A stretch of DNA of 64,000 nucleotides from Chloropicon primus. Its lineage: Eukaryota. The DNA lies in contig CP060765.1 of the NCBI GenBank assembly GCA_023205875.1, positions 248,001 to 312,000 on the forward strand. The letters are read 5' to 3'. The translations under genes were made by a program, and so were the position numbers. Position 1 is the stretch's first letter; each line of letters opens with the position of its first letter. The notes under the pieces are model-generated. The model had not been told where the DNA came from. It saw only the letters and a program-made list of their open reading frames with translations, and did no database searches. Shown one piece after another: positions 54-61,875 of the stretch.

Positions 54-425
54 CCAATCGACAACCGATTCACCTTATCTTTGGGAGAAGGAACGTTGGT
101 GACACCTGAGAGGGGACCCTGGACACTCCCCTAGACCTTGGCCTTGGAGGAGGATGTCCAGGAGGAGGATGGATCCATACCACCACCATGATCATCTGAT
201 CCCAGTCGCCCCGCCTCTCCCTCTTTGGTCTTCCTTCAATCCAATTGACAACCGATTCACCTTATCTTTGGGAGAAGGAACGTTGGTGACACCTGAGAGG
301 GGACCCTGGACACTCCCCTAGACCTTGGCCTTGGAGGAGGATGTCCAGGAGGAGGATGGATCCATACCACCACCATGATCATCTGATCCCAGTCACCCCG
401 CCTCTCCCTCTTTGGTCTTCCTTCA
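54..425. repeat. Near-perfect tandem duplication, 2 x 187 bp, CpG-poor
   Basis: ccaat(c/t)gacaaccgattcacc...ttccttca occurs at 54-238 and again at 241-425 with only about 2 substitutions. Confidence 0.95.
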
Positions 426-465
426 TCGTCCGGGCACATCAGTGTTCCACCACTGCGTACTCCGG

Positions 466-1380
466 TCACGTCAGAGCGACGGGCGACTTGGAACCCCCCC
501 CCCCGCCCTCGTCCTCGTCGTCGTCCTTCCTCCCGTCCTTCCGGTCCTGCAGGCAGGCCGCGAGGGAGAAGAGGAAAGGGTGGTAGAACACGTAGCACAT
601 CGGCACCCAGCTTGGGAAGCCGGAGAACGCGGGGTGCTGCACGATCCCGTTGCCGACGCTCGAGCCCGGCGCGAGGAAAGTGTCAGCCCTCGGGTAGGAC
701 CAGAGGTGGAGCTGGCCGATCAGGAGGCACTCGATCAGGGGGGCCGCGACTCCCGCAAAGACGCTGAGGCCCAGGGACTTGAGGGAGTTCACCCTGTCCT
801 CCCGCTTGCTGCCCTTCCCCGCGAGACGCTTGTCGAACGAAAGCCAGTTGGCGCAAGCGAGCAGGGCCAAGACGGCCCTGATGGTCTTGTAGGGCACGTA
901 GTTCTCGTACAGGATCGCGCTCACCTGGAGGAGCATCCCGAGGACGGCGAACCTGACGAGGACCTCGCTCGGCCTCGTGACCCCATCCCCATCCCCCCGG
1001 CAGAGGAGGAGGTAAAGGCCCCCGTCACACGCGTAGAACGCCGCGAGTAGGGCCGGGACCCACACGCTCGTCTGGGCCCCCATGGGGAGGGCGACGCCGC
1101 CCGCAGCCGGGTTGTACGTGAGCACGCCGGCCCTCCCGTGGATGAGATCGAGCGCAGTGCCGACGGTGGCCCCGAACACCGCCAAACCGCCGAGAGGGAG
1201 GCGCTTCAGCCTCGCCGCACCGAGGGAGGGAGAGGTCTCCCCCTCCTGACCTCCCCCGCCACCCCTGGCCGCCCCAGCCACAGATCCCCGCCATCGACCC
1301 CTAGCCCTCCCGATCTTCACCACCGCACCCCTCCGCCCCGGACCTCTACTGAGTACTGACCCGGTCCCACCCTGCAGCAT
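466..1380 (-). CDS. INSIG-like integral membrane protein, probably organelle-targeted
   Basis: First ATG in frame at 1380 (MLQGGTG); R/G/S-rich leader; several hydrophobic helices; G..LD.IH...GVL.Y and W.YP...FPSWVP..Y.FY motifs typical of plant/algal INSIG-domain proteins. Confidence 0.6.
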   Translation of the reverse strand: MLQGGTGSVLSRGPGRRGAVVKIGRARGRWRGSVAGAARGGGGGQEGETSPSLGAARLKRLPLGGLAVFGATVGTALDLIHGRAGVLTYNPAAGGVALPMGAQTSVWVPALLAAFYACDGGLYLLLCRGDGDGVTRPSEVLVRFAVLGMLLQVSAILYENYVPYKTIRAVLALLACANWLSFDKRLAGKGSKREDRVNSLKSLGLSVFAGVAAPLIECLLIGQLHLWSYPRADTFLAPGSSVGNGIVQHPAFSGFPSWVPMCYVFYHPFLFSLAACLQDRKDGRKDDDEDEGGGGGSKSPVALT

Positions 1381-1789
1381 GACAAAACAAAAACACGATA
1401 AGTTTCTCTTCCTGGCGTCGATGCGGCCAACGAAGGGTTCAACGGAGTGCTTTCGATAAGCACATCTTTCGTGCGTTTCGTTCACCTCCACACCCCGTCC
1501 TCCTCGACGCCCGTGGCAAGGGCTTGGTTCCCAAGGCCGTCCTCCCCTCCTCGTCGTAGATCGAGCGTCACAAGTTCAGTCGCCTCCAAGTCAATCCTCC
1601 ACCAAATGGCGCAAACTTGGTATCGACAGAAAGATCAGAGAGAGAACTATCGCGATCTTGGGCGCCCGCGCCTGTCATCCCACCACCCGAACCTCTGCCC
1701 GTCCTTTTCGTGGTCGCCGCTCTGTTGCCGTTACACGCCTACCCCGCGTCAAGTGTACACTTTGTGTACACCCGTTTCTCACCCCCGGT

Positions 1790-2245
1790 GGTCAAAGGCA
1801 GAGGCCGTTGATCCCAAGGAAAGGAAATCAAGGTGGAGTGAGGTGGAGGCCTAGGAGCACGACAGGGAGGCCAAGAACACGCAGGTTCCGGGGTCGAAGG
1901 CGTGGCCTGGAAGAAGCAGAAGCAGACTAGAGTGGTGGAGAACCGAAAATTCGATCCAGCTTTGCTTTTGGTTTCGCTTGTTGGGGTCAAAGGTGAGGTG
2001 AACCCGTGGTGTCCGAGGGAAACAAAGTGGAGGCCTAGGAGCACGACAGGGAGGCCAAGAACACGCAGGTGCAGAAAGTTGTGGCGTGGCCTGGCAGGAG
2101 CAGGCGAGGGCCAGAGTGGTGGAGGACCGAAAATTTGAGCCAGCCTTGGTTTTGGTTTCGCTTGTTGGGGTCCACGGCAAGGGAAGGACTGCGAGGGAAA
2201 CCCAGGAGGCCTCGGAGGAGAGGAGAGGAGAGGAGGCCAAGAGCT
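1790..2245. repeat. Diverged tandem repeat, ~184 bp period, ~2.4 copies
   Basis: gtggaggcctaggagcacgacagggaggccaagaacacgcagg at 1843 and 2027; agagtggtggag.accgaaaatt...ttttggtttcgcttgttgggg at 1929 and 2113; partial third copy near 2205. Confidence 0.9.
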
Positions 2246-2504
2246 GACGAGGTGTGGAGGAATTTGTAATGGTATAATCCGGCAGCGTAAGGAGAAGGCC
2301 AAAGAACTGGAGGACCGGAGAGTCAAGCCAAGTTGTTCTGCGTTCCCTTTTTTGTTTTGGTGGGGAACCAACCTCTCTCCCCTCGCACACCAGCAGTGTG
2401 CTTTGGTGTGCGAGTTCAAAGGCAGCAACTTTGAGCCTGAAGCACAGCAAGTAGCGGGCTGAGCATCGCGGGGAGCGGTGAAAGAGAGCACAGCAGGAGG
2501 AAAG

Positions 2505-5500
2505 ATGACGGCTTTCGAGGAAGAGATGGAGGAGAAAGACCTCAAGCCCGAGGACATCATGCAGAGCTTGCCCAAGCGCAAGGTCAGGCGCATGAGTGTC
2601 ACCAGGGTTGCCGAGCAGAAGGACTTGAGGAGGTTTTCGATGGGGTTCGACGACGTCAGCAGTATCAGGGAGATACTGACGGATCAGACGTTCTCGTCCA
2701 ACCACACTCCCCCGGACGTTACTGTGGAGAGGAAGACCAAGGAGATAGAGCACACGCTCAAGAGGATGGACACTCTGAAGCGGGCGCAGTCGAGCCGAGC
2801 GGAGTCTCGCAGAGGTCGCATCGAATCCATCTCGATGATGATGGGAGGCGAGGGCTCGCCCCTGGGGACGCCTGGAAGGCCGCACAGGAGGTCGCTCCGA
2901 GGCTCTTTCCAAAAAATCAACAGGAGCGACAAGGCCGCCGCAAACTTGTACGAGCTGATGAAAGGCACGGAGTTCTTCAAGCAACTGCCGCGCAAGGCTG
3001 GCATTGAGGTGTGCCGCCACATCGGTTACAAGAGCATCTCGAAGGGAGGCCTTCTGTTCCGCGTGGGCGAGCCCGGCCTAAGCGTGTTCTTCATCCTATC
3101 GGGCAGCGTCAAGGTTTACCTGCCGGAGAAGGGCAAGGAGGAGGCAGGGGATGGAGAAAGGGCTGCGACTCCCAAGCCGAGGACCAAGACGGTCACCAAG
3201 CGGAGGAAAGTGAAGAGGAAGAAGAAGGTGGATGACGAAGAGGAGGAAAGCAAAGGGAGCGAGGGGTACGAGGATGCCGTGATGGGTTCTGGAGCGGAGG
3301 CGGAGGACGGGGACGATGAGGCCTCGGCGTCGCCTTCAACTCCAGCCGAGGAGGGAGAGGGGGAGGAAGAAGCAGAGGGAGAAGGAGAAGAGGAAGAGGA
3401 AGAGGAGCCTGTCTCGGCTTCCACCTCAGATCCAGCAGTGGAGGAGAGTGAAGCACGGGGCGAGGAGGCGGAAGAGGCGAAGAGCGAGGGGGATCCGGCA
3501 GGGAAAGAGGACATCGCCGCAGAAAGCGAAGTGGAGGTAGTAGAAGAATCGGCCGATGAAGATGCCACGGAGGCCAGCGCAAGCCAAGCCGAATCAGTGG
3601 ACGCACCCGACTCCTCTGCGTCAGGGAAGGAGGAGGGGGACGAGGCTCCGCCTGCAGATCCTGCCGAGGCCGACGAGAAGGTCGAGGAGGAGGAGGCCGT
3701 TGCTGCTGCAGCAGACGAGTCTGAGGGGGCAAAGGAGGCCACTGCCACGGAGGAGAAGACGGTGACGTTCCAAGATGAGGTGGGGGGGTCCACTGACGAC
3801 GGAGAGGAAGACGCGGGTGGATCGGAAAGCAATGACGAGTCAGAGCGGACCGACAGCGACGAGATGGGTCATGACGACGACGATGACGATCTGGCCTCTG
3901 ACGAGGAGTGGGAGTACTATGAATCCGAAGAGAAGCTGCCAGAGGACTACGGGCGGTTCATCGTGGAGCTCCACTCCCCTTCGATGTTCGGAGAGCTAGC
4001 ACTCCTGAGGGAGAGCCCGAGAACTGCGACGGTGGTGTGCGAGCCCGACACCGAACTCATGGAGCTGGAGAGGCACGACTTTGACCGTATCTTGAGGCGG
4101 ATGGGAAACGTCGTGTTCATGCCAGAGAGGCTGAAGGAGATTCTGAGCGTCGAGCCGAAGAGCAGGACGGCGGAGAACAACCTCATGGCCCTCGATCTCC
4201 TGGGGAGGCACAAGTTCTTGCAGAACTTGGACAAGGACATCGCCACACAGCTGATAGGCAAGCTGACGCTCAGCGTCATTCAGGAGAACGAGCTGATCTT
4301 CAGGCAGGGCGAGGTCGGTTCGCAGTTTTATATCATTCTAACGGGAAAGGTGCACGTGTTCGCGGACCGAAGGGGGAAGAAGGAGGAGCCAGAGGAGCAG
4401 AAACCGCCTCCGGAGGACCCAGAGAGCCCGGAGGACAAGAAGAAGGGGAAGAAGGGCAGAAAGGGATCCCCTGACAAGGAGAAGAAGAGCAAGAAGGAGA
4501 GGAAGAAAGCGAGAGAGGCGGAGACGGTAGAGGAGGACACCGCCCCGAAGCAAGGCTTTGAGCAATCTGCCATCATTTCCGAAACAATCTACAGCGGTCA
4601 CGGGGACAGGATGGTCCCTCCGGAGATGTGGGAGGAGGTCTTGGGATCGAAAAAGCAGACCCTCCAGGGCGGGGACTCGTTCGGAGACAGGGCTCTGCTT
4701 CAGAAGCACACCTTGAGGACGGCGTCATGCATCGCTGCTGAGAAGACGGAAATCATGGTCTTGTCCCAAGCCGACTTCAAGAAGCTGTTCGCCAAGGACA
4801 GCAACGAGGTCGAGGGCTTTGAGAGGGTCGCGGAGCTTCTTCAGATTGACTCTGGAGCCAGGAGCAAGGACCAGCTTGACGAGCTGGCCCAGCTTCTGAC
4901 GAAGACGAGTTCTTTCTTCCAGACGCTGGACCCTGGCCTTCATTACGATATCTGCCAGGCGGCGAGTTATAAGCGCTTGCAGTCCAACGACGTTGTCTTC
5001 GTCCAGGGTGAGGTCGGAGACGCCTTTTACGTTGTCTTGCGAGGGACGCTGAGTCTGCACATCAAGGGCACCCCCGGCCTGCCTCCCCCGAAGAAGGAGC
5101 CGAAGGAGCCCCAACCTGGCGAGGAAGACCTCGAGGATGAGCCAGAGGACCTGACCGAAGTCTACGGGCCTTGCATCTCGGTCCTCAGTGGCGGCCAGAG
5201 TTTTGGTGAGCTCGCCTTGCTGCACGGAATGCCCAGAACGGGAACTGTGCTGTGCCAGGACGAATCAGAGCTTCTCGTGCTGTGGAAAGCGAATTATGAC
5301 GAGATTTTGCAGACTTCGCAAGCCAGGGAGCTCGAGCGCCAGGTCGCGTTCCTCCGAAATCTTCCAAACTTGGACAACCTGTCCACGGGACGCTTGATGC
5401 GTATCGCGTACTGCTTCCAACTGAAGGAGCTCTCTCGGGGCTATACCCTTTTGCAGGAAGGCAAGACTTCAGAGAAGGGCCACGTGTACGTTTACATTGT

Positions 5501-6551
5501 CAAGGAGGGCGCCATCAAGATGGTGCGAAAGACGAACATGAAGAAGCTCGCGGGCGACTTCCACGCCAGCGTGGCACCGAGCGCCAGGTTGTCCATCCTG
5601 TCCAACCTGGGCCTGGCCCCAAGAGCAAAGCCTGGCAAGGCTTTGTCGACGACCAAGGGGGGGATCAACACCAACCACGAGGAGACTCTGGGGCTCCCCC
5701 AGGAGACGGAGATCTGCGTTTTGGGTCCCGGAGAAATCTGCGGAGACATCGCTGCGTTCCTTGATGTGCCGCAGCCAGTCTCAGTCACCGCGGTGTGCGA
5801 CACGGTCTTGCACGCGGTGAAGCTGGAGGACCTCATTAGGTCTGTGTCGGACGAGACGATCTTGGAGGAGTTCCGCCACACGAGCAAGAACAGGCTCAAG
5901 TGGATTCTCGAGAGGGAGGCCCGCATCACGAGCACCTGGACATCCTACCTGAAGCAGGCCCAGGAACTGCGGATGACGAAGAACCTTTCCACGCCGAAGA
6001 AGAGCAAGGGCTCCAAGAGGGATGCGTCAGGGAACAAGACTCCGAACTCCAAGAAGGGTGGCAGCAACGAGTCCAGCATCGTGGCTTCGACGGGCATGAC
6101 GAAGACGAGCGTGGTGTTCCAGAGCCGCAGCCTGGTGGAGCGGGCCGAGGAGGCCATCAAGAGCCTCGTGAAGGGGACCCAAAAGCTCGACAGCAAGATG
6201 TGGGACACGATGAAGGGCATGGACGTCTCCATGACGAAGCATTACTGGTCGCCCAGCAAGAAGAACAACCACCCCGAGAGGTCGCACAGCGGCAGCGTCA
6301 AGCTGCCGAGCATCAGCCAAACCTCCACGCCAACGAAGAAATCGAAAGAGAAGTCTCTTGCCCAGATCCTTTCCAGCAAGAGCAGCATGTACCTCTCGCC
6401 AGGACAGACGCTGAGCCCTGTGAAAATTCCGCCGATAGGCACCCCGAGCCGCTTCCGGTACAAGAGGTCGCCGTTCAACTCGAAGGTCGTGCCCAAGAGT
6501 CCAGTGTCGACTCCGACGGGCACCCCATTGTCGCAAAGGACGGTGGCGTAA
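2505..6551 (+). CDS. Protein with four cyclic-nucleotide-binding (CAP_ED) domains and acidic/Lys-rich insertions (CNBD2-like)
   Basis: Repeated (L/I/V)FxxGExGxxF(F/Y)(I/V)xxGx(V/L) and FGELALL...PRT(A/G)TV motifs; first ATG at 2505 (ORF track starts on GTG 2478). Confidence 0.85.
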   Translation: MTAFEEEMEEKDLKPEDIMQSLPKRKVRRMSVTRVAEQKDLRRFSMGFDDVSSIREILTDQTFSSNHTPPDVTVERKTKEIEHTLKRMDTLKRAQSSRAESRRGRIESISMMMGGEGSPLGTPGRPHRRSLRGSFQKINRSDKAAANLYELMKGTEFFKQLPRKAGIEVCRHIGYKSISKGGLLFRVGEPGLSVFFILSGSVKVYLPEKGKEEAGDGERAATPKPRTKTVTKRRKVKRKKKVDDEEEESKGSEGYEDAVMGSGAEAEDGDDEASASPSTPAEEGEGEEEAEGEGEEEEEEEPVSASTSDPAVEESEARGEEAEEAKSEGDPAGKEDIAAESEVEVVEESADEDATEASASQAESVDAPDSSASGKEEGDEAPPADPAEADEKVEEEEAVAAAADESEGAKEATATEEKTVTFQDEVGGSTDDGEEDAGGSESNDESERTDSDEMGHDDDDDDLASDEEWEYYESEEKLPEDYGRFIVELHSPSMFGELALLRESPRTATVVCEPDTELMELERHDFDRILRRMGNVVFMPERLKEILSVEPKSRTAENNLMALDLLGRHKFLQNLDKDIATQLIGKLTLSVIQENELIFRQGEVGSQFYIILTGKVHVFADRRGKKEEPEEQKPPPEDPESPEDKKKGKKGRKGSPDKEKKSKKERKKAREAETVEEDTAPKQGFEQSAIISETIYSGHGDRMVPPEMWEEVLGSKKQTLQGGDSFGDRALLQKHTLRTASCIAAEKTEIMVLSQADFKKLFAKDSNEVEGFERVAELLQIDSGARSKDQLDELAQLLTKTSSFFQTLDPGLHYDICQAASYKRLQSNDVVFVQGEVGDAFYVVLRGTLSLHIKGTPGLPPPKKEPKEPQPGEEDLEDEPEDLTEVYGPCISVLSGGQSFGELALLHGMPRTGTVLCQDESELLVLWKANYDEILQTSQARELERQVAFLRNLPNLDNLSTGRLMRIAYCFQLKELSRGYTLLQEGKTSEKGHVYVYIVKEGAIKMVRKTNMKKLAGDFHASVAPSARLSILSNLGLAPRAKPGKALSTTKGGINTNHEETLGLPQETEICVLGPGEICGDIAAFLDVPQPVSVTAVCDTVLHAVKLEDLIRSVSDETILEEFRHTSKNRLKWILEREARITSTWTSYLKQAQELRMTKNLSTPKKSKGSKRDASGNKTPNSKKGGSNESSIVASTGMTKTSVVFQSRSLVERAEEAIKSLVKGTQKLDSKMWDTMKGMDVSMTKHYWSPSKKNNHPERSHSGSVKLPSISQTSTPTKKSKEKSLAQILSSKSSMYLSPGQTLSPVKIPPIGTPSRFRYKRSPFNSKVVPKSPVSTPTGTPLSQRTVA

Positions 6552-6632
6552 GGAGGGACCCGCAACCGACCAACCACTGACTGTGAACTACTAAAGGAGA
6601 TTTATTACAAATTGTTTTCGAGGCCTCTGCCT

Positions 6633-7154
6633 CTAGTAGAACGTGCCCGTGAAGCCGCACTCAGGGAACTTGGCCTTGGCCTGGTCCGTCGTGTTCTGCT
6701 CCTGGGCCTCCTGAGGCGTCCAGAAGTTAATGACCTCCGTAACCCTGTTCAGCATGGCGATCTTCTCGCTCGCTGGAATCCAGTCCTTGGCCTCGAGCAC
6801 GGCCTTGAGGTTCTCCCACGCGTCGTCCTGGGGCCAGAAGAAGTACTCGGTCAGGGGAGAGCTGTTTCCCTTCCCAAGAATCTGGTCCACAGCGAAGGCG
6901 AGCGTGTCCTTCCCCCAAACGAACTTGAGGCGAAACGTAGGCGGAGACGTCTCTCCCATCCCCTCGAACATCCCTCCGGAGGCATCCTCCGCGACGGCCG
7001 TGGCCCTCAAGCCCTTTCTCAAAGTCCCCTCCCTCGTCTGTGCCCTCCTCCCCGCCTCCCTCGCCGCCACGCCAGCAGCTCTCTGGCAGCGCCCGACACG
7101 CACGCCTCCAGCAGCCGCGCCTCCCACACTCCTCTTCACCAACTGCCTCGCCAT
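6633..7154 (-). CDS. PSRP3: Plastid-specific 30S ribosomal protein 3 (Ycf65 family)
   Basis: LKFVW...AFAVDQ...SPLTEYFFWPQDDAWENLK..LEAKDWI...LNRVTEVINFW signature after an Arg/Ala-rich transit peptide; first ATG at 7154. Confidence 0.92.
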   Translation of the reverse strand: MARQLVKRSVGGAAAGGVRVGRCQRAAGVAAREAGRRAQTREGTLRKGLRATAVAEDASGGMFEGMGETSPPTFRLKFVWGKDTLAFAVDQILGKGNSSPLTEYFFWPQDDAWENLKAVLEAKDWIPASEKIAMLNRVTEVINFWTPQEAQEQNTTDQAKAKFPECGFTGTFY

Positions 7155-7234
7155 CGCTCTGCTCACTCTGCCCGCGCACGCATGGCCAGCCAAAGCACAA
7201 AACAGCGAAAGTCAGTCGAGTTCAGTCTCATGCT

Positions 7235-7330
7235 TCTCCCTCCTCACCCCGTGGGTCATTCCCTTCGAGCGAGGTGTCGTTCGAAAGATCACGAAACGAT
7301 GATTCCCGCAACAACCCTCCCCCTCTGTCT
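7235..7330 (-). promoter_or_regulatory. Oriented upstream element copy (core 7277-7288), 5' of PSRP3
   Basis: Minus strand gagggggagggttg...tcgtttcgtgatctttcgaacgacacctcgctcgaaggg. Confidence 0.7.
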
Positions 7331-7514
7331 CTCTGCCGTCCTCGACCTTCGCTTCGTCCGCAAACTCACCTTCCTTTGCTCGACCCTCGTCGGCCGCTTT
7401 TTCCCGTGTTTTTGGATAAGGCGCTGGTGGTCACAAATCAATCGAGGAGGACATCGTAATCCTCGGGCAAAGGGTGAGGGTGTTTGGTAAGAGATTGGAG
7501 GACGAGAGCGAGTT

Positions 7515-7600
7515 CCGGGGCGAAGGCTACCGCAATCGATGTCATCCTTGCCTCGTGATCTTTCCAAAGATGGCTTCCTCGAAAGAAATGGTGCCCTGAA
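7515..7600 (+). promoter_or_regulatory. Oriented upstream element copy (core 7559-7570), 5' of GATase gene
   Basis: ggggcgaagg...cctcgtgatctttccaaagatggcttcctcgaaagaaatggtgccctg. Confidence 0.7.
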
Positions 7601-7706
7601 GACTGCAGGAGGGAATCGAAACCGAAACGTCTCAGCAAGGCGTTGGAGGTGAGTTCGCGTTGAAGTGGAGGAAGGACGTGGTTGTGCTCGCTTTTGACCC
7701 CAGGGG

Positions 7707-8597
7707 ATGGACAGGAGAAGCGCTTGCTCGAGAGGAGGGCTCTTCGCAGCTCGATCGAGTTCGTCCTCATCGCGGGGAGGAGGAATGCGGCAGAATCGCC
7801 TCGGGGCCAGGTCCACGACGGTCATGATGGCGGGGGCTGACGGGAGGAGGAAGTACGCGATACTTGTCACGGGGGAACCTCTTCCCGAGGTGATGGACAA
7901 GCACGGCGACTTTGAGAAGCGTTTCAAGCGTTTGCTCGCTGAGGATGGCGCGGAGGAGAGCTGGGACGCTTTCAAGGTCTTTCGGGGCGAGAGGTGCGTC
8001 TCTTTGGGCGACTACGACGGCGTGGTTGTGACGGGGTCGAAGTTTGATGCGCACGGGCAGGACGCTTGGATCGCAGACCTCATGGCAGACCTCAGGGCCT
8101 GCCACGAGAGGCGTCAGAGGGTTCTGGGGATCTGCTTCGGCCACCAGGTCCTCGCGCGGAGCCTGGGTGGGAAGGTCGAAAGGGCACAGAAGTGGTCATT
8201 GGGGGCGAACAAGATCGCGTTTGATGCGGAGAAAGTCGGTGAATCCTGTGGGAGGCTCGCGGGAGGCGCCCTTGACGACGGGATCGGGGTGGTCCTCAGG
8301 ATCCACCAGATCCACCAAGATGAGGTCAGCGTGCTGCCTCCAGATGCAACAGCAATCGCGAGCTCCCCCGAGTGCGAGAACGAGGCCTTCGTGATCGGAA
8401 GTCACATCTTTTGCGTCCAGGGTCACCCCGAGTTCGACGACAAGATGGTGGCCGATATGCTCGTCCTGAAGAGAGAGAACGGCTTGGACGGCAGCGTGGT
8501 CGAGGAGGGCTTCGCCCAGCTCAAAGCGAATTCCGTCGACGAGCTCACTTATTCCAAGTGGAGCAGGCTCTGCAGAGCGTTCCTGAAGAGCGAGTAG
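7707..8597 (+). CDS. Class I glutamine amidotransferase-like protein (gamma-glutamyl peptidase-like)
   Basis: YDGVVVTGS, LGICFGHQ (catalytic Cys) and QGHPEF (His-Glu) motifs. Confidence 0.9.
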   Translation: MDRRSACSRGGLFAARSSSSSSRGGGMRQNRLGARSTTVMMAGADGRRKYAILVTGEPLPEVMDKHGDFEKRFKRLLAEDGAEESWDAFKVFRGERCVSLGDYDGVVVTGSKFDAHGQDAWIADLMADLRACHERRQRVLGICFGHQVLARSLGGKVERAQKWSLGANKIAFDAEKVGESCGRLAGGALDDGIGVVLRIHQIHQDEVSVLPPDATAIASSPECENEAFVIGSHIFCVQGHPEFDDKMVADMLVLKRENGLDGSVVEEGFAQLKANSVDELTYSKWSRLCRAFLKSE

Positions 8598-8708
8598 CGA
8601 GCGAAGGGTCGGGCGGTGGGGCCCTCGGCTTCCCGTGGTTGTGTATGGCAAACAAAAGTTTGTTTAATATATACTCCATTTATTTCACCCCACAGCAAGC
8701 AGTAAAGT

Positions 8709-9827
8709 TCAGAACCGGAGGAAGGAGGTGAGGACCATCAGGAGGTCCTGGTATCCTCCGCCCTTCCTCGTGAATAGCCGGCCGTTAATGTTCTTCAGAT
8801 GAAAGATCTTGTCCCCGATTTTGTACTGAAAGTCTGCAAGCTTCTTGTAGTTGATGTCCAGGTCCACCATATTCAGCCTCGTCATGAGGTCGGCCACCAG
8901 AGCGTCCACGGCCTCCGTGGTGTTGCTCGTGTCTATGGCGATCGGAGACAAGGGGGATTGGTCGACGAGGAGCATCCTCCGCCTGTTCCTCTCCAGCAGC
9001 TTGCTCTGGCTCTCCGGGGTAGTCACCTGAGGCAGGGGGGACGACGTGGAGAGCTCCGGGGTGAGCATGCCCGTGCTGGCCATGCCCTTCCCCCTGGGCG
9101 AGGCCTCCATCCTGGCTTGCCTGCTCGTGGGGTCAAGGGGAGTGACCTTGAGCTTGAACTCCCCGCTCAAGTTGCCTGACAGCGATTCCGAGAGCTTGAG
9201 CAGAGGTATTTCCACGCCCATCACGTTGTTTCGCTTCAGTTGCTCTACCGCTATGGCGTTCTCGAGGATGAGGACCCTATTCACCCTCTTCAGCTGGTCC
9301 AGGGAGGTCTCTGCCGCTTCCAAGGCGTACTCACTGTCCTCTGCCCTCGCAGCGGCCTCGGTGGCCTTCGAGTTCGCCGCATCGACCTTGGCCTCGAGCT
9401 CCTCTCTGGTTTCCTTCCTCTCCTTCTTCTCCGAAGCGAGCTGGTCCCTCAAGTCCGCGATAGTTGACTCACTCTTTTCCAAAGCTTTGACCAGTTTCGA
9501 GACCAAGTTTTGCAGGTCCTGGGCCTTTCTTGCGACGCTTTCGCCGCTGACGGAGGGCTCGTCCTCCTCCGCACCCCTCGAGGAGGAGGAGTCGTCCGGA
9601 TACAACTTGTCTTTGCAGGCAGCTTCCGAGGCAGACAGGGCCTTGGCCACTTTCTCGACAAGGGACTTATCCACAATCTCGTAACCCTCGTCGTCAGTTT
9701 GCACATCCTTTGCCTCTGCGTAGTCCACCTCAGCATCGGCACTGGTGAGGACCTGCTCCTTGGCAAAGGCTACGACTCCGCTCCCCTCCGAAGGAGGAGC
9801 TTCTGCTTCAGCTTCAGGCATCATCAT
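8709..9827 (-). CDS. Coiled-coil protein with C-terminal GAS2-related (GAR)-like domain
   Basis: Central heptad-rich segment; C-terminal YKIGDKIFHLKNINGRLFTRKGGGYQDLLMVL resembles the GAR consensus Y.(F/I)G......R.GGG(W/Y)..L..FL. Confidence 0.65.
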   Translation of the reverse strand: MMMPEAEAEAPPSEGSGVVAFAKEQVLTSADAEVDYAEAKDVQTDDEGYEIVDKSLVEKVAKALSASEAACKDKLYPDDSSSSRGAEEDEPSVSGESVARKAQDLQNLVSKLVKALEKSESTIADLRDQLASEKKERKETREELEAKVDAANSKATEAAARAEDSEYALEAAETSLDQLKRVNRVLILENAIAVEQLKRNNVMGVEIPLLKLSESLSGNLSGEFKLKVTPLDPTSRQARMEASPRGKGMASTGMLTPELSTSSPLPQVTTPESQSKLLERNRRRMLLVDQSPLSPIAIDTSNTTEAVDALVADLMTRLNMVDLDINYKKLADFQYKIGDKIFHLKNINGRLFTRKGGGYQDLLMVLTSFLRF

Positions 9828-10499
9828 CTTGGAGTTGACAATTGAAAACAGTTTTGAGCTCTACACCCTTTCGCCTGATTGGCAACCTTGCAGCTACTCA
9901 GATGCAACAACAGCTTGACATGCTGGTGCACGTCACCAGCAACTCCAACGTGACAACGACGAGGATACAGAGGTTATGGGCACCACAGAACAACCCAGAG
10001 AAAGTGTCAAGTCCTCCCTTTGGGTCCGAGCACACAAGTTTTTGACAAAGAGAAACTTGTGGCTTGAGGAGATCAAACTTGAGTTTCGGACTGGTGTCAA
10101 TTGCAGTGCCAGCCTCCCTGGATGCTTGCGCTGTACCTGGAGACACACGCACACTCTCTCTGAAGAGTCCAAGGCCTAGGTTTCTCTCCAGCTGGAAAGG
10201 AAGGATTGCTTGTATAGCGTTAATGATCCAAGGCAAGGAGGTGCATAGATCCCAAGGACAATCTTTCCAAGGGAACTTGGACCAGACAGAGGAGAGGAGA
10301 GAAGGAGGAGAGGGGTAATGCTTGCGTCCCTGGATCCCAACGTGCGCTCCTCGTGACCATCTCCTTGTGCTATCCTTCAACCCCCACGTCCTTAAGTCCT
10401 GATGTTTCCTTCCCTTGGCACCCTCCATCGACCAAGGAAGGGGAAGGTTTGACCCATGTCGTTACAAGAGGCCAAGAGGGTGGGAAGCAAAGAGGAAAG

Positions 10500-10805
10500 G
10501 GAATTATATGGCTTTCGCGGGCGAATGGGCTCACGAGACTCACTCCTTGCGCAGGCTTTACCTTGGGAGTGACCCATCCTATCGCATCCCATCGCATCCC
10601 AGCCATCTTGCTTCAAGCTTTTCACTGGAGGGGGAGGGACTTTGGGTTCGATAGACCAAACTTTTTTGAGTTGCTTTGAATTCATTGGCTTTCGCGGGCG
10701 AATTGTGTGTTCCAACAAACAACCGAGTGGCTTGGCTCACACACCGCCTTACCCTTGGCAGGAGTCGCATCGGCATCACCTTTGCGTGCTTGTTGCCAAG
10801 TGATA
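10500..10805. repeat. Diverged tandem duplication, ~177-190 bp period
   Basis: tggctttcgcgggcgaat at 10509 and 10686; ttacc(c)ttgg and cttg.t..caag blocks recur at similar offsets. Confidence 0.65.
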
Positions 10806-25957: not shown

Positions 25958-26054
25958 GCCATTGTAAGCACATCCACTACCACCATTCATCCATCACACT
26001 CCTCCCTCTCTCCCTCTCCTTCCCACCACCAATCCCCATCATCACCAAGGATTG

Positions 26055-26118
26055 TTCCATCCTCCTCATCACAGCACCATTCTTATCAAGTGAGGGCTCT
26101 TTGGAAAGAGCAAGAGAG
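26055..26118 (-). promoter_or_regulatory. Orphan, CpG-decayed copy of upstream element (core 26098-26109)
   Basis: Minus strand ctcttgctctttccaaagagccctcacttgataagaatggtgctgtgatgagg; no minus-strand gene downstream. Confidence 0.55.
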
Positions 26119-26254
26119 CAAGAGACAACGCATCCATCCTCCTCCCTCTCTCCCTCTCTCCCTCTCCCCTTCCTTCCACCATCACCACCATCACCACCAG
26201 GGAGGAGAGCTGGCTGGCTGCTTCAAAGTCTGCAAGTGACAGATCGATCAATCG

Positions 26255-29329: not shown

Positions 29330-29740
29330 AGAGGAAGAGGCAAGAGCGACAAGGACAACAACACAACAAACCCGTGCAAGGGTTTTGAAGAACAAGAACA
29401 AGGGTTCGTCAACCCCTTGGATGAAGCAAGAATAACATAACACACGACGGAGAAGAGACAACCCTTCCCCTTGATGAGAGTTGTACATTAGTTGGTCTTT
29501 TTTTTTTCATAGAGCAAGACGACCATAAGAACAAGAACAAGGGTTTCATGTTTCATGCTCATGCTCGTCAGTATGAACCCTTCTGGGAGTCAAGACCTTC
29601 CCTCTTCTTCTTCTTCCTCCTGCTCGGGAGGGAGGGAGGGAGGGAGTCCGAGTTACAAAAAGAATGGAGGGATGGAGTGGAGCAAGAATAACATAACATA
29701 ACACGAGAAGAGTCTCTTTTAGGTTGTGATTAGTTTAGGT
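29330..29740. repeat. Diverged, indel-rich local duplication
   Basis: gcaaga(g)cgac at 29340/29514, gaacaagaacaagggtt at 29390/29529, gcaagaataacataac at 29426/29682. Confidence 0.6.
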
Positions 29741-30565
29741 TTCACTACTACTTCCTCGTCGCTTTTCTCGCCCTTGCTTGAGGAAGGGACGACGATGTCT
29801 CTTCGGAGGTCGCAAGGCGCTCGAGCTTCAGCATGGCGGATCTTGTTGAGCGCTTTGGCTTCCTCCCCGGCAAAATTGACACCAAGGTGGTTTTAAACTA
29901 GTTCAATTTTGAAAAACAAGGTTCATCTTTTGTCATGTGATCCAAGGCCGACCCCATTCTCCTAATCAACTCCAGGAGGAACCACCCGAGGTACGCTCGC
30001 TCCTCTCCTCTTCCCCTTCCTCCTCCCTCTCCAGCAAGCAAGCATGCAAGAGAAAGAGAGAGAGAGAAAGAGAGAGAGAGAAAGAAATAGAGAGACAGGA
30101 GAAGAGAACAAGAGCCTTCTGTAAATGTCATCCTATAATGGCACCTCCTCCTCCTCCTCCTCCTCCTCCTCCTCCTCCTCCTCTTCCTCCTCTTCCTCTT
30201 CCTCTTCCTTTCCTCGCTTGAGAAAGTGTAAATTCATTCACACCAGAAAAGCGCGCGACGAGAGAGAGAGAGAGGGAGAGAGGGAGAGAGAGCTGAAGGC
30301 CTCCGTGTTCCTCGTTCCTGGTCCTCTCTCGTGCAGACGGCGACATCCTTGGTGACGACCAACCACCGTGACCACACTCGACGCCTCCTTCCCATTCTCA
30401 CGCCAGGTTGCCTCACACGCAAACGAAGACTTGGTCTGAGTCCCCAGGTTGTAACGGACGGAGTTGAGGTCGTGCCGTCCTCGTCCTCGTGTCTTCCCAT
30501 CTTGTCTCGTCTTGTCTCGTCTGGTCTGGTCGAGGAGAAGTCGCCGGCTGTTTCTTCTCTCCGTC

Positions 30566-46764: not shown

Positions 46765-46800
<36 letters not shown>

Positions 46801-53200: not shown

Positions 53201-54035
53201 CATGACAAGGCGCTCGAGCAGCAAGGAGCTCAAGTCCATCAGGAGCAGACTCTTTGGTGCTAGCGAGAGGGTAAGGGCAAACCCAAAGCTCAGCATCGGG
53301 TACCAGACATCTGCTGCACTCCGGGGTCTAGTCAAAGCAAAGACTATTCACAGCGCGATCAGCTTGTGCAAGGTTATCAGCTTCAGCACCAGATACTCGT
53401 CGAAGTGCTGCGTGATGGTCTATGAGGACAAAACTGCGATCGCCTCCCTGCTGAGACTCATGAGAGCTTGCAACAGGAGCCAGCCCCACGTTGACTTCCT
53501 CAAGCAGGTGATGCCAGCTCTGCAGAACATCGTCGAATGCGGCAGACCCAACGCCAAGTCCCCAGTGCTGACTGAGGAGCTCGCCGAGGTTCCTGACATT
53601 TTCACGACTCTGAGCGAGCTCTTGCAGATGTTCAGGGGCAACCCTGACATCTTCCAGCCGACCGCCAAGGTCTTGCACGCCCTCGTCAGCTGCGGGAAAG
53701 GGGTTGGGTCCCTGGACGCCTTGAGTGACGAGATGAAGGGAATGAAAAAGAAGCTGGAGGGCATTTCCCAGATTCTGAAGCAGAAGTTGAGGCTGGAGAA
53801 GAAGTACATTGACCACATGGAGAACAAGAAGGGGTCTGATGTGTCCGCTAGAGAGTCGGCAAAGAAGGTGGTGCAAATCACGAAGGATTTGCAGTCGCTG
53901 TACGATATCCTCAACTGCTTCGGCGATGCCCCAGCCGGGGAATACTCTGTGGTCGAGCCACGCAGCGCAAAGAACACCATCGTGAGAAAGGCCTTTATGG
54001 AGACGCAGAACATCCCATCGCTAAACAGGATGTAA
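47244..54035 (+). CDS. ASPM: Abnormal spindle-like microcephaly-associated protein (ASH, 2 CH, many IQ, ARM-like C-terminus); three 1-nt G-run deletions (~50840, ~50913, ~51120) break the frame as given
   Basis: ASH-like LDFG.V..G, QERAFAAWLN, YNSFWLK.GL, INNLAVDLRDGVRL.KL, DIVEGD.ELTL.FLW, LLKW...IRNFTSSFADG, IQxxxR repeats, CNRSQPH. Confidence 0.9.
50330..52633 (+). repeat. Coding tandem array: ten 207-bp units (3 IQ motifs each) interspersed with four 66-bp units
   Basis: gcagatgatgcagttcaagagg at about 50405, 50612, 50819, 51024, 51296, 51503, 51710, 51983, 52190, 52463; ALMIQSTYKCFVAKKLLGQHK unit at about 51128, 51815, 52295, 52568. Confidence 0.95.
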
Positions 54036-54537: not shown

Positions 54538-55198
54538 ATGGCGATGAGCAGCGCGCGGAGGCCACCGAACACGAGCACCGTCCCCTGCAGCGGATGCCAC
54601 ACACTGTTGAGCTATGCCACGGGTGCCCAGAGCGTGCGTTGCGGTACGTGGCTCGCAAGTTTTTTGTGCGTTACGGGGTGGAGGGGTCTTGTAACTGACC
54701 GAAGTCGTGCGTGTGTGTGTATGTTTCTCTTCTTCTCTTTTTCTTGCCTCTGCGTTTCAAGTCTTGTGCTCGACGGTGACTGACGTCCGACCGGTGAGTC
54801 ACCTCATCTGCGGGGGGTGCCGCACCGTCCTCGCCTACCCGTCGGGTGCCGCGAGTGTGAGGTGCGCTGTGTGCGATTCCTTGAACACCACGATTCGTAG
54901 AGACGTAACCGCAGTGGTGAGGTGCGTGGGTTGCAATACCGACCTGAACTACCCGTCAGGAGCGTCCAGCGTGAGGTGCTCCCTGTGCCATCACATCAAC
55001 CAGGTCCGCGGAGGCTCCCGGATAGCCCAAAGCCAGGGACCGGGCCCTTTACTGGCGGGCCTGCAGCAGCAACAGCAGCAACAGGAGGGGCTGGAAAGTT
55101 TTGGGAGGAAGAGCTCAACCTTGTACGTCATCCAGAACCCCTGCAAGGACGGCGAAGAGTGTTTTAACATGGCGATAGGCCTGAAGATCGCGGCGTGA
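54538..55198 (+). CDS. LSD1/LOL-type zinc-finger protein (3 CxxC..YPxGAxSVRCxxC fingers); intron 54644-54761
   Basis: Three LSD1 fingers (first completed by splicing) and the C-terminal V.QNP motif characteristic of the family. Confidence 0.9.
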
Positions 55199-56825: not shown

Positions 56826-56919
56826 CGTGATGACGCCAACTCACGCGCGTGCTCTCCTCGCCCTCGTCGCCTTCCTCTCGCTCTCTCCAGGAGTCGAGTC
56901 ACCTTCTCTCTCCCGTTTC

Positions 56920-57165
56920 CCGTCCTCAAATCCTCAAAACCTCGACGAATCCTTCCACAAAGGAGTCAAACGAAAGATAAAGAAATGATCCTTCCGTCTG
57001 TTTGACTCTTATCCTTCTCTTTGTCTTCAAACGCCTCTACGTCGTCGCGAAGCTTCCCTCTTTCCTCCTCCGACAGATGCCCTCAACCTCTTTCGCGTCC
57101 TCAAATCCTCACCACTGCGCCGTTGTTTTCGAGCGAAGGCTCGTTCGAAAGAGAGAGAGACAAGA
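56920..57165 (-). promoter_or_regulatory. Two tandem upstream-element copies 175 bp apart (cores 56966-56977 degenerate, 57141-57152)
   Basis: tcctcaaatcctca at 56923 and 57098; minus strand tctttcgaacgagccttcgctcgaaaac...gtggtgaggatttgagg. Confidence 0.65.
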
Positions 57166-57378
57166 GATCCGCCTGTGCCTCTCTCCACCGTCCCAATGTC
57201 CTCCGTAGTACCTCAAAAGGCCTCGTCTTCGTCGCCGTCGTCGCCTCCCCTTCGCGCTCCTGTAGTTGACCGTTGTAGCTGTCAGTTTTGAAATTTTGAG
57301 GATTTTTGGAAATTTCTCAAAATAAAATTGAATTTCAAATGTGAAGTATCATAACGACTGTCGTACAATAGGGCAAAC

Positions 57379-57655
57379 CACCACCTAAGGTAAGGAGGAG
57401 GACCAAGGGAGGGCGACCAGAGCCAGGGAGGGACACGCCTTGGGGAGTCCGGGGTTTGTTCCATCGAACTGCCACTTTCTCTTGCCACTTTGAGGTTCTG
57501 GGTTATCTTTTCACGAGGCCAAAGGCTTGTCAGGCTCAAGGCCAAGGCCACCACCACCACCACCTAAGGAGGAGGACCAAGGGAGGGAGGGCGACCAGAG
57601 CCAGGGAGGGACACGCCTTGGGGAGTCCGGGGTTTGCTCCATCGGATTGCCCTTT
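57379..57655. repeat. Tandem duplication, 178 bp period, CpG-poor
   Basis: agccagggagggacacgccttggggagtccggggtttg at 57421 and 57599; ccaccacctaagg...ggaggaggaccaagggaggg precedes both. Confidence 0.9.
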
Positions 57656-57775
57656 GGTCTGCCTCGTCCAGTTTGCAGAGGAGAGGTCTTGGTGTCGAGG
57701 CAAAGGAGAGTCCTCCTGTAGGGCATTGAATTGATTGCATTGCATTGCATTGATTGAGGTGGGTGACCAATAACA

Positions 57776-57783
57776 ACACACAC

Positions 57784-57842: not shown

Positions 57843-57867
57843 ACTTTGAGAGGACCACCCGAGCTCG

Positions 57868-59304: not shown

Positions 59305-59396
59305 AACAAAACCGAAAGAAAAAATATTATATGATACAGAATGATACAATATTGATTTTTGTTTGCCAGGCTATCTTACACCTCCTCCTCCTTCCT

Positions 59397-61299
59397 TCAC
59401 AGCTTACTCAAAAGGACCATGGTAAAGAAGAAGAGGGGAATGTACAAGTTGTCCAGGTGAGGCGTGAAGGCTTCCAGGAGACACATCCCAACGCAAAGGG
59501 CGACAAAGGTTGGGGTGCTGCCGATTAGCTGGCCACCGACCATGCGATCCCAAGTCAGCGCAAAGGCCACTGTCCCGAGTATGGCGGCACAAGTGCCCTC
59601 CAGGGTCTTCTTGGATCCTCTGCAGATTGCGAGTCTCCCAAAGTTCTTGCCCACCAAGACGCCCAGAACATCGGCGATGCCGAGGGCAAGAATCCCAGAG
59701 GACAAGAGGAGCAAGTCTGCCTCCTCGGTCTGAGCACGATCGTCGGAAGAAGCTGCGCGTATGTTGAACCAGAACGGCACGGACAACCCCAGCAACAGAG
59801 AAAGGTGGGAGAGGATCAGAGTCCCTGAGTCCCTCGAGTCCGTGAACCTTCCGAAGAAGGAGGTCATCCGTTCCGAGATTGAACTTTCCTTGCATTGTAT
59901 TCTCACAAACTCGCACAGGACCAGGGCGCACAGCACGCTTGCACTGCAAAACCTCAGCAGTGGCACCGCCTGTCCCGCCCCTTCCGCCCCGCCAGACTGT
60001 GCGTGGGTGTGCACGGCCGAGGCAAACACGGCAAGAGCTGCCACATGAAACAGCTTGCGCACCACGATGTTCGCCACGTACCCCCCCGTCGCCACGAGGG
60101 CGATCGCGGGTATCGCGATGCACACCACGCAGAACCAAAACAGGAGGAGGCGTACGTTTGACTCCACGCCGAGCAGGAGCAGGTCTGCCGTGCGAAATGC
60201 CTCCACCAGGCCCAGCATGCCCACGACGTACTGAAGGGCGATCAGGAAGCATATCGCAGCTGCGGTCACGACGCTTCGAAGGTCTTGGTGGTGAGACCCC
60301 GATAGACGCATCACTAGCGCGATGAACATCACCGAAGCGAACAGCAGCTGCCCTTGAACGAGGACTTTCACCCCGCCAGCGCAAGGAGCGGCCGCGCTCG
60401 GTGGCTCCTGATCCTCGAAGAACCAAGGGAAGTGCCAACCCAATTCAAATGGTAGAATTCCGCCCAGGGGCGCCAGAACCCAAGTCACCAGGGTCCAGAA
60501 CCTCGGCGGGGTTCCGGAGCTCCTCGGGCTCGGGTGATCCCAAACGTCCCCGCCCGGGGGGACGAACCACCTCGAGTGCCAGTCCATGAGGCACCACAGG
60601 ACCACGCAGACGCAGCCGTTGGAGATTAGGAGGGCGTCCCCGCTCGCGACTTGAAACCTGCCCTTGGCAAGGAGTCCCAACTCGGAGCAAAAGTAAGCGA
60701 GGGGGATGCAGATGGTTGTGAACCAGGTGTAAGTCTCCTGGAGGTGGTGCAGGTGCCCCAGGGCCTGGGCAACGGATATGAGGCAGGCCGCCTGGATTCC
60801 CGCTGACGCTCCCAACGCTCGCGCATGCTTCCAGTTCGACGCGGCGACGCTCAGGGACACGAAGGTCCCCAGGAGCTCCGGCATCAGCCTCGACCCGTCC
60901 CTCTCCGCATTGGCCCTCGAGGCGCCCGCGAGAGTCGCGAGGGTGAACGTGCCGAGCAGGTGACCCTGCGGGGAGCCCTCCTCGGCATCTATCGCTCCCG
61001 CCAGCGCCGCCGCGCAACCCAGGGAGAGCGTGAGCGAGGTCACCGCGGAAACGTGGACCTGAAGCGAGACAGGGAAGGGGGAGGTGCGCACGCCACGTCA
61101 GTCGAGCTCCTTCGAGGAGCTGAGGAGGAACAAAATAAAAAACGAACGGGCTTCTCACCTCACTTGGTTCTCCGACGACGGCTACGCTCGCCGCTCCGTT
61201 ATAAAAGGAGTACAGGCAGTACGTGGCGTACAGCGTCCCGAGGGCGAGGACGACGCTCTCCCCCCCGGAGGACCTCAAGAACGGAAGGCACTCGCGCAT
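59397..61299 (-). CDS. Dolichol kinase; intron 61059-61158
   Basis: RKLFH, F.DSRDSG.LILSHL.LLLG..VP.W, GI.ALGIAD....VG...G......SKKTLEGT, LEAFT..LDNLYIPL motifs. Confidence 0.9.
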
Positions 61300-61349
61300 C
61301 CCTCCCGAGGGTATCCTCGCCTCTGCCTCTTCCAGTCCCCCAACCCTTT

Positions 61350-61420
61350 CGCGTCCTCAAATCCAAACCACGAAGCCAAATCTTTCGAGCGAGGGCTCTT
61401 TCGAAAGATCGAGAGACGCT
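61350..61420 (-). promoter_or_regulatory. Oriented upstream element copy (core 61397-61408), 5' of dolichol kinase
   Basis: Minus strand cgtctctcgatctttcgaaagagccctcgctcgaaagatttggcttcgtggtttggatttgagg. Confidence 0.72.
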
Positions 61421-61659
61421 TGGTCTCCCTTTTCAACTCACCCTACCTCCCCTCGACCTCCCTCGCCCCCACTCCCTCCTAACCTCCGCCCCCTTCACCA
61501 GCCAAAACGATCGACGATCGCGATCGCCAAAATCACGTGTGCCTGGAGATTCTCTGCCCACCAAGAGCTCTGACGAAGAGGGAAACGTCTTTGCGCCAGT
61601 TTTAGGGACGTAGGGGCGACGCGAGGGGCAAAAAGGCCGGGGTCTTTCGAAAGTACGCT

Positions 61660-61875
61660 TCGATACCTTTCGAACGAGCCCTCGTTCGACCGTTTTCGCG
61701 CCCGGAGTGGTCGAGAGAATCCGCGCGACGACGGGGATTGAAGGTGTGGTCAGGGAGGGGAGGAGGGTTATCTGGAGAGAGAGAGAGCGAGGGAGAGAAG
61801 GTGAGAGGGGGAGGGTTGGGTAGACGGAATCCTTGTCTCGTGATCTTTCGAAAGAGCCCTAGGTCGACCGCTTAG
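61660..61875 (+). promoter_or_regulatory. Two tandem upstream-element copies 178 bp apart (cores 61666-61677, 61844-61855), 5' of ABC gene
   Basis: cctttcgaacgagccctcgttcgaccg and gagggggagggttggg...gtctcgtgatctttcgaaagagccctaggtcgaccg. Confidence 0.7.

What the first reader, a model, noticed from the sequence alone, without database searches (positions are those of the whole stretch)
54..61875. Intergenic tandem duplications all share a 175-188 bp period
Seen in sequence: tandem repeats have periods 187 (54/241), 184 (1843/2027), 177 (10509/10686), 188 (15156/15344), 183 (20826/21009), 175 (56923/57098), 178 (57421/57599) and 178 (61666/61844), plus a rougher one starting at 174 (29340/29514). 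Three are tandem pairs of the upstream element; the others show no obvious similarity to each other and range from nearly identical to highly diverged, implying repeated independent events. Established knowledge: 175-190 bp is a typical nucleosome repeat length. Inference: either a mutational process duplicates one nucleosome's worth of DNA (linker-to-linker breaks, Okazaki-fragment-sized slippage, or reintegration of mononucleosomal circles), or selection retains only insertions that preserve nucleosome phasing.
Basis: partly seen in the sequence, partly recalled or inferred. Interest (0 to 1): 0.85.

Follow-up and report, generated by a model that had tools for sequence, protein, structure and literature searches.

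The report
Alga duplicates DNA in nucleosome units

Summary
Real. In an unbiased scan, 8 of 14 non-coding repeat events lie at lags 175-188 (P about 3e-7). Units are mutually unrelated apart from a shared upstream element in three, and adjacent copies are 56-98% identical. The ninth case (29340) is not confirmed; 61660 is weak. The DNA is Chloropicon primus chromosome 12. Genome-wide test: the genome paper's long-read table of heterozygous indels has 24 of 73 events of 100 bp or more at 165-193 bp (3.7 expected), plus 2x-4x multiples. One is this window's 187-bp unit. The paper's main text never mentions nucleosomes. Best reading: a mutational process that miscopies one nucleosome repeat, likely at lagging-strand (Okazaki) junctions. 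Precedent: unselected S. pombe duplications peak at 150 nt, near its 154-bp repeat. Rivals: selection for nucleosome phasing; meiotic double cuts (events are enriched on small chromosomes). The nucleosome repeat length was not measured, and coding DNA shows no 180-bp signal. The scan had not noted this before; a length-locked (61/70 bp) analogue was noted in an archaeon.

The parts
54..425 (.). Youngest array: two 187-bp copies, 98% identical, just 3' of the 466-1380 (-) ORF; copy number differs between haplotypes in the published long-read table
   Evidence: junction bridged by X4 and X5 contigs; same unit listed as 188-bp heterozygous insertion on chromosome 12, 11 reference and 5 alternative reads
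1843..2369 (.). Three-unit array (1843, 2027, about 2205; lags 184 and about 178) in the divergent 5' region before the cNMP-binding gene at 2505
   Evidence: (lags 184, 182, 366)
10501..10789 (.). Old pair, lag 177, between divergent ORFs; ends uncertain
   Evidence: 56%, z 5.3; inside one X1 contig
15141..15497 (.). Old pair, lag 188, in the long divergent region before the LARP1 gene; ends uncertain
   Evidence: (E 3.7e-6); inside one X1 contig
20825..21190 (+). Pair, lag 183-184, each unit with the upstream element near its middle (cores at 20897 and 21080)
   Evidence: more alike than any of 187 dispersed element pairs
56854..57203 (-). Old pair, lag 175-178, each unit with the upstream element (cores at 56985 and 57160)
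   Evidence: only 2 of 187 dispersed pairs score as high
57377..57725 (.). Pair, lag 176-178, before the kelch gene at 57868; unrelated to the neighbouring array
   Evidence: (E 1.4e-30)
61658..62015 (+). Two upstream elements 178 bp apart; possibly an old duplication whose second copy runs into the ABC-transporter start codon at 61920 (weak)
   Evidence: not above dispersed pairs
7168..7369 (-). 202-nt intron in the 5' leader of the PSRP-3 gene holding one copy (core at 7296) of the dispersed upstream element; shows the element can be transcribed
   Evidence: spliced joint 7167-7370 with CT..AC ends in X3

Best explanation
Non-coding DNA of this alga gains and loses head-to-tail copies in steps of about 180 bases regardless of sequence, and the step is likely one nucleosome repeat, likely set by mutation itself: a lagging-strand (Okazaki-fragment) end would slip or re-prime one nucleosome back and copy that unit twice. 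Shown: the size peak in the window and genome-wide, unrelated units, ages from polymorphic to about 45% diverged, and multi-unit alleles. Inferred: (1) 180 bp is this species' nucleosome repeat (about 0.85); (2) the peak arises at mutation and not only through selection (about 0.7); (3) the event is replication slippage at nucleosome-spaced fragment ends, helped by short imperfect homologies (about 0.5 overall). Once two copies exist, slippage or unequal exchange between them would add or remove whole units, giving the 2x-4x alleles and the three-copy array. Most such events in exons would be removed, so survivors collect in leaders and divergent promoter regions, where a whole-nucleosome step would also leave downstream phasing intact.
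For: Window: 8 of 14 events at 175-188 bp; units unrelated (cross-scores 17-30, and 45-46 only among element-bearing units). Genome-wide: 24 of 73 heterozygous indels of 100 bp or more at 165-193 bp, mean 179, SD 8, against 3.7 expected from a power law fitted to the other sizes (Poisson P 2e-12; 7 at 130-159 and 7 at 200-229), and 7 at 325-395 against 2.25 (P 0.008) (PMC6731263 Supplementary Data 8 read whole). By eye, the 336, 361, 386, 559 and 665-bp alleles are 2, 2, 2, 3 and about 4 internal copies of 166-193-bp units. For mutation over selection: the peak is already present among heterozygous differences in a clone of 0.05% divergence; it rises above shorter sizes, whereas a filter can only restore the baseline; 31 indels of 65-109 bp, the most phase-disrupting sizes, are tolerated; at least one 181-bp insertion (chr16:404436) reads by eye as coding sequence. 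Precedent: unselected subclonal tandem duplications in diploid S. pombe peak at 150-nt spacing, absent in E. coli and mitochondrial DNA (PMC8639346, sections 6 and 10 read); S. pombe's repeat is 154 bp and it lacks H1 (PMC12961432 passage), whereas C. primus has annotated H1 genes, which fits a longer repeat. In yeast rad27 mutants, duplications of median 148 bp have breakpoints at dyads with Okazaki ends (PMC13334657 passages). Junction DNA is GC-rich (0.62-0.64) at 4 of 6 junctions. AA/TT spacing peaks at 175 bp outside the masked arrays (6 of 200).
Against: No nucleosome map; coding DNA shows no 172-190 bp period in any of 7 features, and the GC comb outside the arrays is not significant (59 of 200). 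The residual AA/TT period may come from older decayed duplications, so it is not fully independent. Junction phase is inconclusive (mean 0.21 of a unit, Rayleigh p about 0.1; the youngest and best-defined junction, 241, is AT-rich as the linker model predicts). Clean flanking microhomology was not shown. Only 1 of the 24 peak indels could be matched to a tandem pair (the others' flanks were not available), and many may be gains or losses in existing arrays, which says nothing on how the first pair arose. Replication slippage does not predict the small-chromosome bias (4 of 125 on chromosomes 1-8, 20 of 96 on 9-20; P 4e-5, post hoc split). FEN1 and DNA2 are annotated and expressed, so there is no known defect. 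Dan et al. do not themselves attribute their 150-nt peak to nucleosomes in the sections read.
Confidence: 0.5

Rival explanations
1. Duplications arise at all sizes; selection keeps only those that add whole nucleosomes, because off-phase insertions near promoters of a very compact genome disturb positioned arrays.
For: Seven of the eight arrays sit in 5' or divergent regions. Indels of 100 bp can be visible to selection in Chloropicon on nutrient cost alone (PMC13344279 passage). Compact green algae have strongly positioned nucleosomes (PMC12636532 passages). All three same-strand neighbouring element pairs are 175-183 bp apart. Length-only selection predicts no fixed junction phase, which one search does not exclude.
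Against: The peak exceeds the counts at shorter sizes and is present among young heterozygous alleles; 65-109 bp indels are common (31 of 221); ATG-to-ATG distances of 9 divergent pairs are not multiples of 180; an unselected peak at about the repeat length exists in S. pombe.
Confidence: 0.2
2. Meiotic or recombinational origin: two breaks (SPO11 double cuts) in neighbouring linkers on different chromatids are joined, or chromatids pair one nucleosome out of register, giving reciprocal one-nucleosome duplications and deletions at promoter hotspots.
For: Enrichment on small chromosomes, which usually have more crossovers per base (recalled); promoter location; double cuts give tandem duplications, and microdeletion classes of about 140, 180 and 230 bp in mouse (10.1101/2020.06.23.168138 passages); a SPO11-type gene is annotated.
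Against: In mouse the main classes are about 30 and 60 bp and need ATM loss; predicted linker junctions are seen in 1 of 5 arrays; the annotated gene is named topoisomerase VI subunit A; the small-chromosome split was post hoc.
Confidence: 0.17
3. Mononucleosomal fragments or circles are excised and reinserted next to their source.
For: Unit size and multiples fit a nucleosome ladder; double cuts can release circles.
Against: All copies are adjacent and direct; self-BLAST shows no dispersed copy of the non-element units; junctions are mostly not AT-rich.
Confidence: 0.05
4. The period reflects a 180-bp mobile element or a promoter motif that recurs at fixed spacing, not sequence-independent duplication.
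For: A 60-80 bp element occurs 21 times in the window, 0 in 5 shuffles; it is in 3 of 8 arrays and by eye in about 6 of the 24 peak indels; the 61658/61836 pair is explained by it alone.
Against: Five arrays lack it and are unrelated to each other; homology covers the flanks at 20825 and 56854; it also occurs in off-peak indels of 153, 199 and 274 bp; no terminal inverted repeats in self-BLAST.
Confidence: 0.04
5. Assembly or variant-calling artefact.
For: The window has likely indel errors in the IQ-repeat array at 50324-52633 and differs from X1 contigs at several places.
Against: Seven pairs are 56-81% identical, which a false duplication cannot give; the near-identical one is bridged in two other samples and seen as a long-read allele.
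Confidence: 0.01

Closest known systems
Microhomology-mediated tandem duplications (MTDs) of S. pombe (Dan et al. 2021, PMC8639346)
   Same: Locus-unique head-to-tail duplications, reversible, with a nuclear-only size peak (150 nt) close to the species' nucleosome repeat (154 bp, PMC12961432).
   Different: There a side remark on rare subclonal events, not tied to nucleosomes in the sections read; here the class makes a third of all heterozygous indels of 100 bp or more, forms multiples, and has built up in non-coding DNA at about one array per 2.5 kb (8 in 19.7 kb). Clean microhomology not shown here.
Small inverted triplications of yeast rad27/FEN1 mutants (PMC13334657)
   Same: Nucleosome-scale duplicated segments (median 148 bp) with breakpoints at dyads and Okazaki ends.
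   Different: Inverted middle segment, broad sizes, needs FEN1 loss; here direct repeats, narrow size (SD 8 bp), FEN1 annotated and expressed.
SPO11 double-cut deletions and duplications (10.1101/2020.06.23.168138)
   Same: Two nearby breaks give deletions and tandem duplications in discrete size classes, one near 180 bp.
   Different: Mouse hotspots, mainly 30 and 60 bp classes, mostly without ATM; no link to meiosis shown here.
Centromeric satellites with nucleosome-length monomers (e.g. 171 and 178 bp, recalled; phasing discussed in PMC4053949 passages)
   Same: Unit near one nucleosome; grows and shrinks by whole units.
   Different: One family in high copy at centromeres; here 2-4 copies of many unrelated units in gene flanks, like satellite seeds.
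Introners of Micromonas and Aureococcus (PMC9860276 passages; Huff 2016 not held, recalled)
   Same: Nucleosome positions shape new insertions in compact algal genomes.
   Different: Transposon families inserting in linkers as introns; here local duplication of resident DNA, no family.

Membership tests
Microhomology-mediated tandem duplication (MTD) | Head-to-tail direct copy of locus-unique DNA | tested here: met
Microhomology-mediated tandem duplication (MTD) | Exact microhomology pair (4-25 nt) at both ends of the unit | tested here: inconclusive
   Only imperfect matches between left flank and unit end at 54 and 1843; ends of older units are blurred
Microhomology-mediated tandem duplication (MTD) | Copy number changes by whole units | tested here: met
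   187-bp unit heterozygous in long reads; multi-unit alleles; three-copy array
Microhomology-mediated tandem duplication (MTD) | Size peak present among de novo, unselected events | not testable with these tools
   No raw reads or mutation-accumulation data; only contigs were offered
Okazaki/FEN1-linked small inverted triplication | Inverted middle segment between direct copies | tested here: not met
   Copies are adjacent and direct; no local inverted match
Okazaki/FEN1-linked small inverted triplication | Breakpoints at nucleosome dyads | tested here: inconclusive
   Composition proxy only: GC maximum at 0.13-0.24 of the unit in 4 of 5 arrays, 0.52 in one; p about 0.1
Nucleosome-quantised variation (any mechanism) | Unit length equals the measured nucleosome repeat length | not testable with these tools
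   No MNase data; proxy AA/TT period 175 bp in non-coding DNA, none in coding DNA
Nucleosome-quantised variation (any mechanism) | Genome-wide size peak with integer multiples | tested here: met
   24 vs 3.7 expected at 165-195; 7 vs 2.25 at 325-395
SPO11 double-cut duplications | Breakpoints at meiotic break sites, SPO11-dependent | not testable with these tools
   Only the indirect small-chromosome bias
Satellite DNA | One sequence family in long high-copy arrays | tested here: not met
   2-3 copies per locus, unrelated units
MITE / Introner | Dispersed copies of one element with terminal inverted repeats or target duplications | tested here: not met
   Units unrelated, no dispersed full-length copies or terminal inversions

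The most novel reading that the evidence does not exclude
Chloropicon has a wild-type mutational process that measures one nucleosome and ignores sequence, and it is the main source of 100-700 bp length change in unique non-coding DNA, so the genome grows and shrinks in nucleosome quanta, duplicates +1-nucleosome/promoter units to make new leaders, and keeps seeding nucleosome-length repeats. Nucleosome-sized satellite monomers elsewhere would then come from mutation bias and need no selection for phasing.
Probability: 0.4. Interest if true: 0.9.

Novelty: new variant of a known kind. Interest (0 to 1): 0.8.

Why it matters
Why so many tandem repeats and satellite monomers are about one nucleosome long is an old question: selection for phasing, or a mutation that copies one chromatin unit. 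Here hundreds to a few thousand (extrapolated from 8 per 19.7 kb of non-coding DNA) independent, unrelated units of graded age, plus segregating alleles, sit in a 17-Mb cultured genome. MNase-seq, Okazaki-fragment mapping and one deep long-read run can separate the two. It would also be a natural, heritable footprint of chromatin on the structural mutation spectrum, and a route to duplicate transcription-start units without moving nucleosome phase.

Tried and rejected
No whole genome was held for this window, so no direct genome-wide period histogram. Motif scans for more Chloropicon DNA gave 22 metagenome, 12 viral and 1 prokaryote loci, none with the rest of the element except a weak score for L035: unused. 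Marine metagenomes X6, X9, X10 and run X8 laid on 1-20000 gave short low-depth pieces and no joint across any array: no information on ancestral single-copy states. No RNA holder was listed as on record. Whole-window composition showed about 176-184 bp peaks, but in 38 kb of coding DNA none of 7 features passed codon shuffles, so a sequence-based repeat length from genes was rejected; CpG is not periodic (o/e 0.83), so no sign of Micromonas-type linker methylation. The Rayleigh test on indel sizes is invalid for a skewed distribution and was ignored. Breakpoints in the published table cannot give junction phase: the chromosome 12 insertion is listed as a rotation starting about 130 bp inside the unit. 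ATG-to-ATG distances of 9 divergent pairs are not quantised. Whether the upstream element marks a dyad or a linker could not be decided (whose last part failed; redone). No Rfam match in the window. Supplementary Data 2 has no gene coordinates. Huff and Zilberman 2014, Huff 2016 and one S. pombe mapping paper are not held.
Full report
Source. The window is gene-dense, 57% GC, with few introns. Three of 8 proteins looked up share 90% clusters with named Chloropicon primus proteins, among them A3770_12p66200, so this is chromosome 12 of that species. No whole genome was held.

The observation. An ungapped scan of all lags from 20 to 3000 shows that complex non-coding direct repeats fall almost only at 174-188. 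After masking simple repeats, 14 events score 18 or more in non-coding blocks; 8 lie at 175-188, against 0.12 events per replicate in 25 Markov nulls; binomial P 2.8e-7 given 5.8% opportunity. The other six are lags 140 (CT-rich), 313 and 331 (GAA-rich), 139 (19 bp), 114 (by eye a coding zinc-finger repeat) and 374 (about twice the unit, at the 56854 array). Adjacent copies are 98, 81, 74, 69, 61, 57, 56 and 56% identical, z 5.3-29.5. The 1843 array has a third copy. The 61658/61836 pair is matched by 20 of 187 dispersed element pairs and stays doubtful; 20897/21080 (0 of 187) and 56985/57160 (2 of 187) hold. Units from different arrays are unrelated except through the shared element.

Not an artefact. 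Contigs of X4 and X5, from other samples and studies, bridge the 241 junction, each with one letter swapped between the copies' two variants, a hint of further alleles; X1 contigs span 10678 and 15329 (X1 may be the source). Wild metagenomes were too thin.

Genome-wide test. The genome paper (PMC6731263; passages, section 24 and three supplementary tables seen) lists heterozygous indels called by PBSV on PacBio reads. I read Supplementary Data 8 whole: 221 indels of 20 bp or more, 73 of 100 or more; none dropped. Twenty-four are 165-193 bp (mean 179, SD 8), against 3.7 expected from a power law fitted to sizes 50-1000 outside the peaks (P 2e-12); neighbouring 30-bp bins hold 7 and 7; 325-395 bp holds 7 against 2.25 (P 0.008). 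The window range (175-188) was fixed before this table was seen. By eye, the 336, 361, 386, 559 and 665-bp alleles contain 2-4 copies of 166-193-bp units. The 188-bp insertion at chromosome 12:257865 is the window's 54/241 unit. The other 23 could not be checked for tandem structure. Peak events are 4 of 125 on chromosomes 1-8 and 20 of 96 on 9-20 (P 4e-5, post hoc). About six carry the upstream element by eye; most are unrelated; one (chr16:404436) reads as coding.

Surroundings. Seven arrays lie in 5' or divergent regions, which hold most non-coding DNA (convergent gaps are 70-111 bp); one is 3' of a gene and transcribed. A 60-80 bp element with a TCTTTCGAAAGA-like core occurs 21 times, 0 in shuffles, pointing at the next start codon, most often 80-160 bp away; divergent pairs are 242-348 bp apart. 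One copy lies in a spliced 202-nt leader intron, so it can be downstream of the start site. It sits mid-unit at 20825 and 56854. Whether it marks a dyad or a linker is open.

Is 180 the nucleosome repeat? Not measured. Non-coding AA/TT autocorrelation peaks near 180, 360 and 540; with both copies of seven arrays masked (for 61660, up to the start codon), the best period among 110-260 is 175 (6 of 200 permutations), GC 180 (59 of 200, not significant). Coding DNA shows nothing. H1 genes are annotated (table cut when stored). The strongest argument is the ladder of sizes in unrelated sequences.

Mechanism. Mutation is favoured over selection because the peak is present in young heterozygous alleles (0.05% divergence), exceeds shorter sizes, and coexists with 31 indels of 65-109 bp. 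In diploid S. pombe grown 25 generations, subclonal tandem duplications peak at 150-nt spacing, not in E. coli or mitochondria (PMC8639346, sections 6 and 10 and passages); its repeat is 154 bp (PMC12961432, one passage). The pairing of these two facts is my inference. Okazaki ends lie near dyads, and rad27 duplications of about 148 bp break there (PMC13334657, passages). In the window the AT-rich part lies inside the unit in 4 of 5 definable arrays, and at the junction in the youngest: inconclusive, leaning away from linker-to-linker cuts. The small-chromosome bias is better met by a meiotic route (10.1101/2020.06.23.168138, passages). Strong selection in a compact genome (PMC13344279, passages; PMC12636532, passages) cannot be excluded. 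Odds: slippage 0.5, selection 0.2, recombination 0.17, circles 0.05, element 0.04, artefact 0.01.

Novelty. The genome paper's main text has no mention of nucleosomes; in the 14 of 20 supplementary files searched the word occurs only in gene names (files 14 and 17-20 unseen, 16 cut). Ten library searches (listings and abstract starts) showed no report of nucleosome-quantised indels or duplications in Chloropicon or as a genome-wide natural pattern. The library lacks most subscription papers, including Huff and Zilberman 2014 and Huff 2016 (recalled only), which treat nucleosome-shaped algal genomes and could hold a related remark. Introners (PMC9860276, passages) and satellites (PMC4053949, passages) fail membership. 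Earlier scan notes held nothing on this genome or sequence; one note gave the S. pombe paper.

Verdict. Real, genome-wide and apparently unremarked; a new variant of local tandem duplication with a nucleosome-scale ruler. Interest 0.8.

Noticed in passing
window, 21 sites (e.g. 7296-, 7551+, 24510+, 33316+, 46585-, 61416-): Conserved 60-80 bp gene-oriented element with a TCTTTCGAAAGA-like core, mostly 80-160 bp before start codons, once inside a leader intron; no Rfam match; likely a core-promoter or +1-nucleosome element, not found described in the searches made.
   Followed up: partly
window 47244-54035: ASPM-like gene (ASH, CH, IQ domains) split into two ORFs; the IQ array of 207- and 273-bp units has single-base indels (lags 205, 206, 272), likely assembly errors.
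   Followed up: no
window 29388-29760: Repeats at lags 139 (19 bp exact) and 255 (about 80 bp) in the long region after the HMG-box gene; off-ladder duplications.
   Followed up: partly
window 54585-54990: Repeats at lags 114 and 223 that read by eye as LSD1-type zinc fingers (name recalled), in a gene missed by the ORF list.
   Followed up: no
window 25979-26203: CT-rich pair at lag about 143 around an upstream element that points away from the nearer start codon at 26255.
   Followed up: no
PMC6731263 Supplementary Data 8: Nucleosome-size heterozygous indels are absent from chromosomes 1-3 (0 of 57) and common on chromosomes 9-20 (20 of 96); a 2.66-2.71 kb insertion recurs on chromosomes 3, 6 and 17, likely an active transposon.
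   Followed up: partly
window 2347-2374, 10432-10439, 15002-15043: Clusters of differences between the window and X1 contigs (alleles or assembly errors), two of them beside or inside arrays.
   Followed up: no
L002:103-500: A metagenome contig with repeats at lags 174-177, 364-366 and 543, unrelated to this window (42% GC).
   Followed up: no
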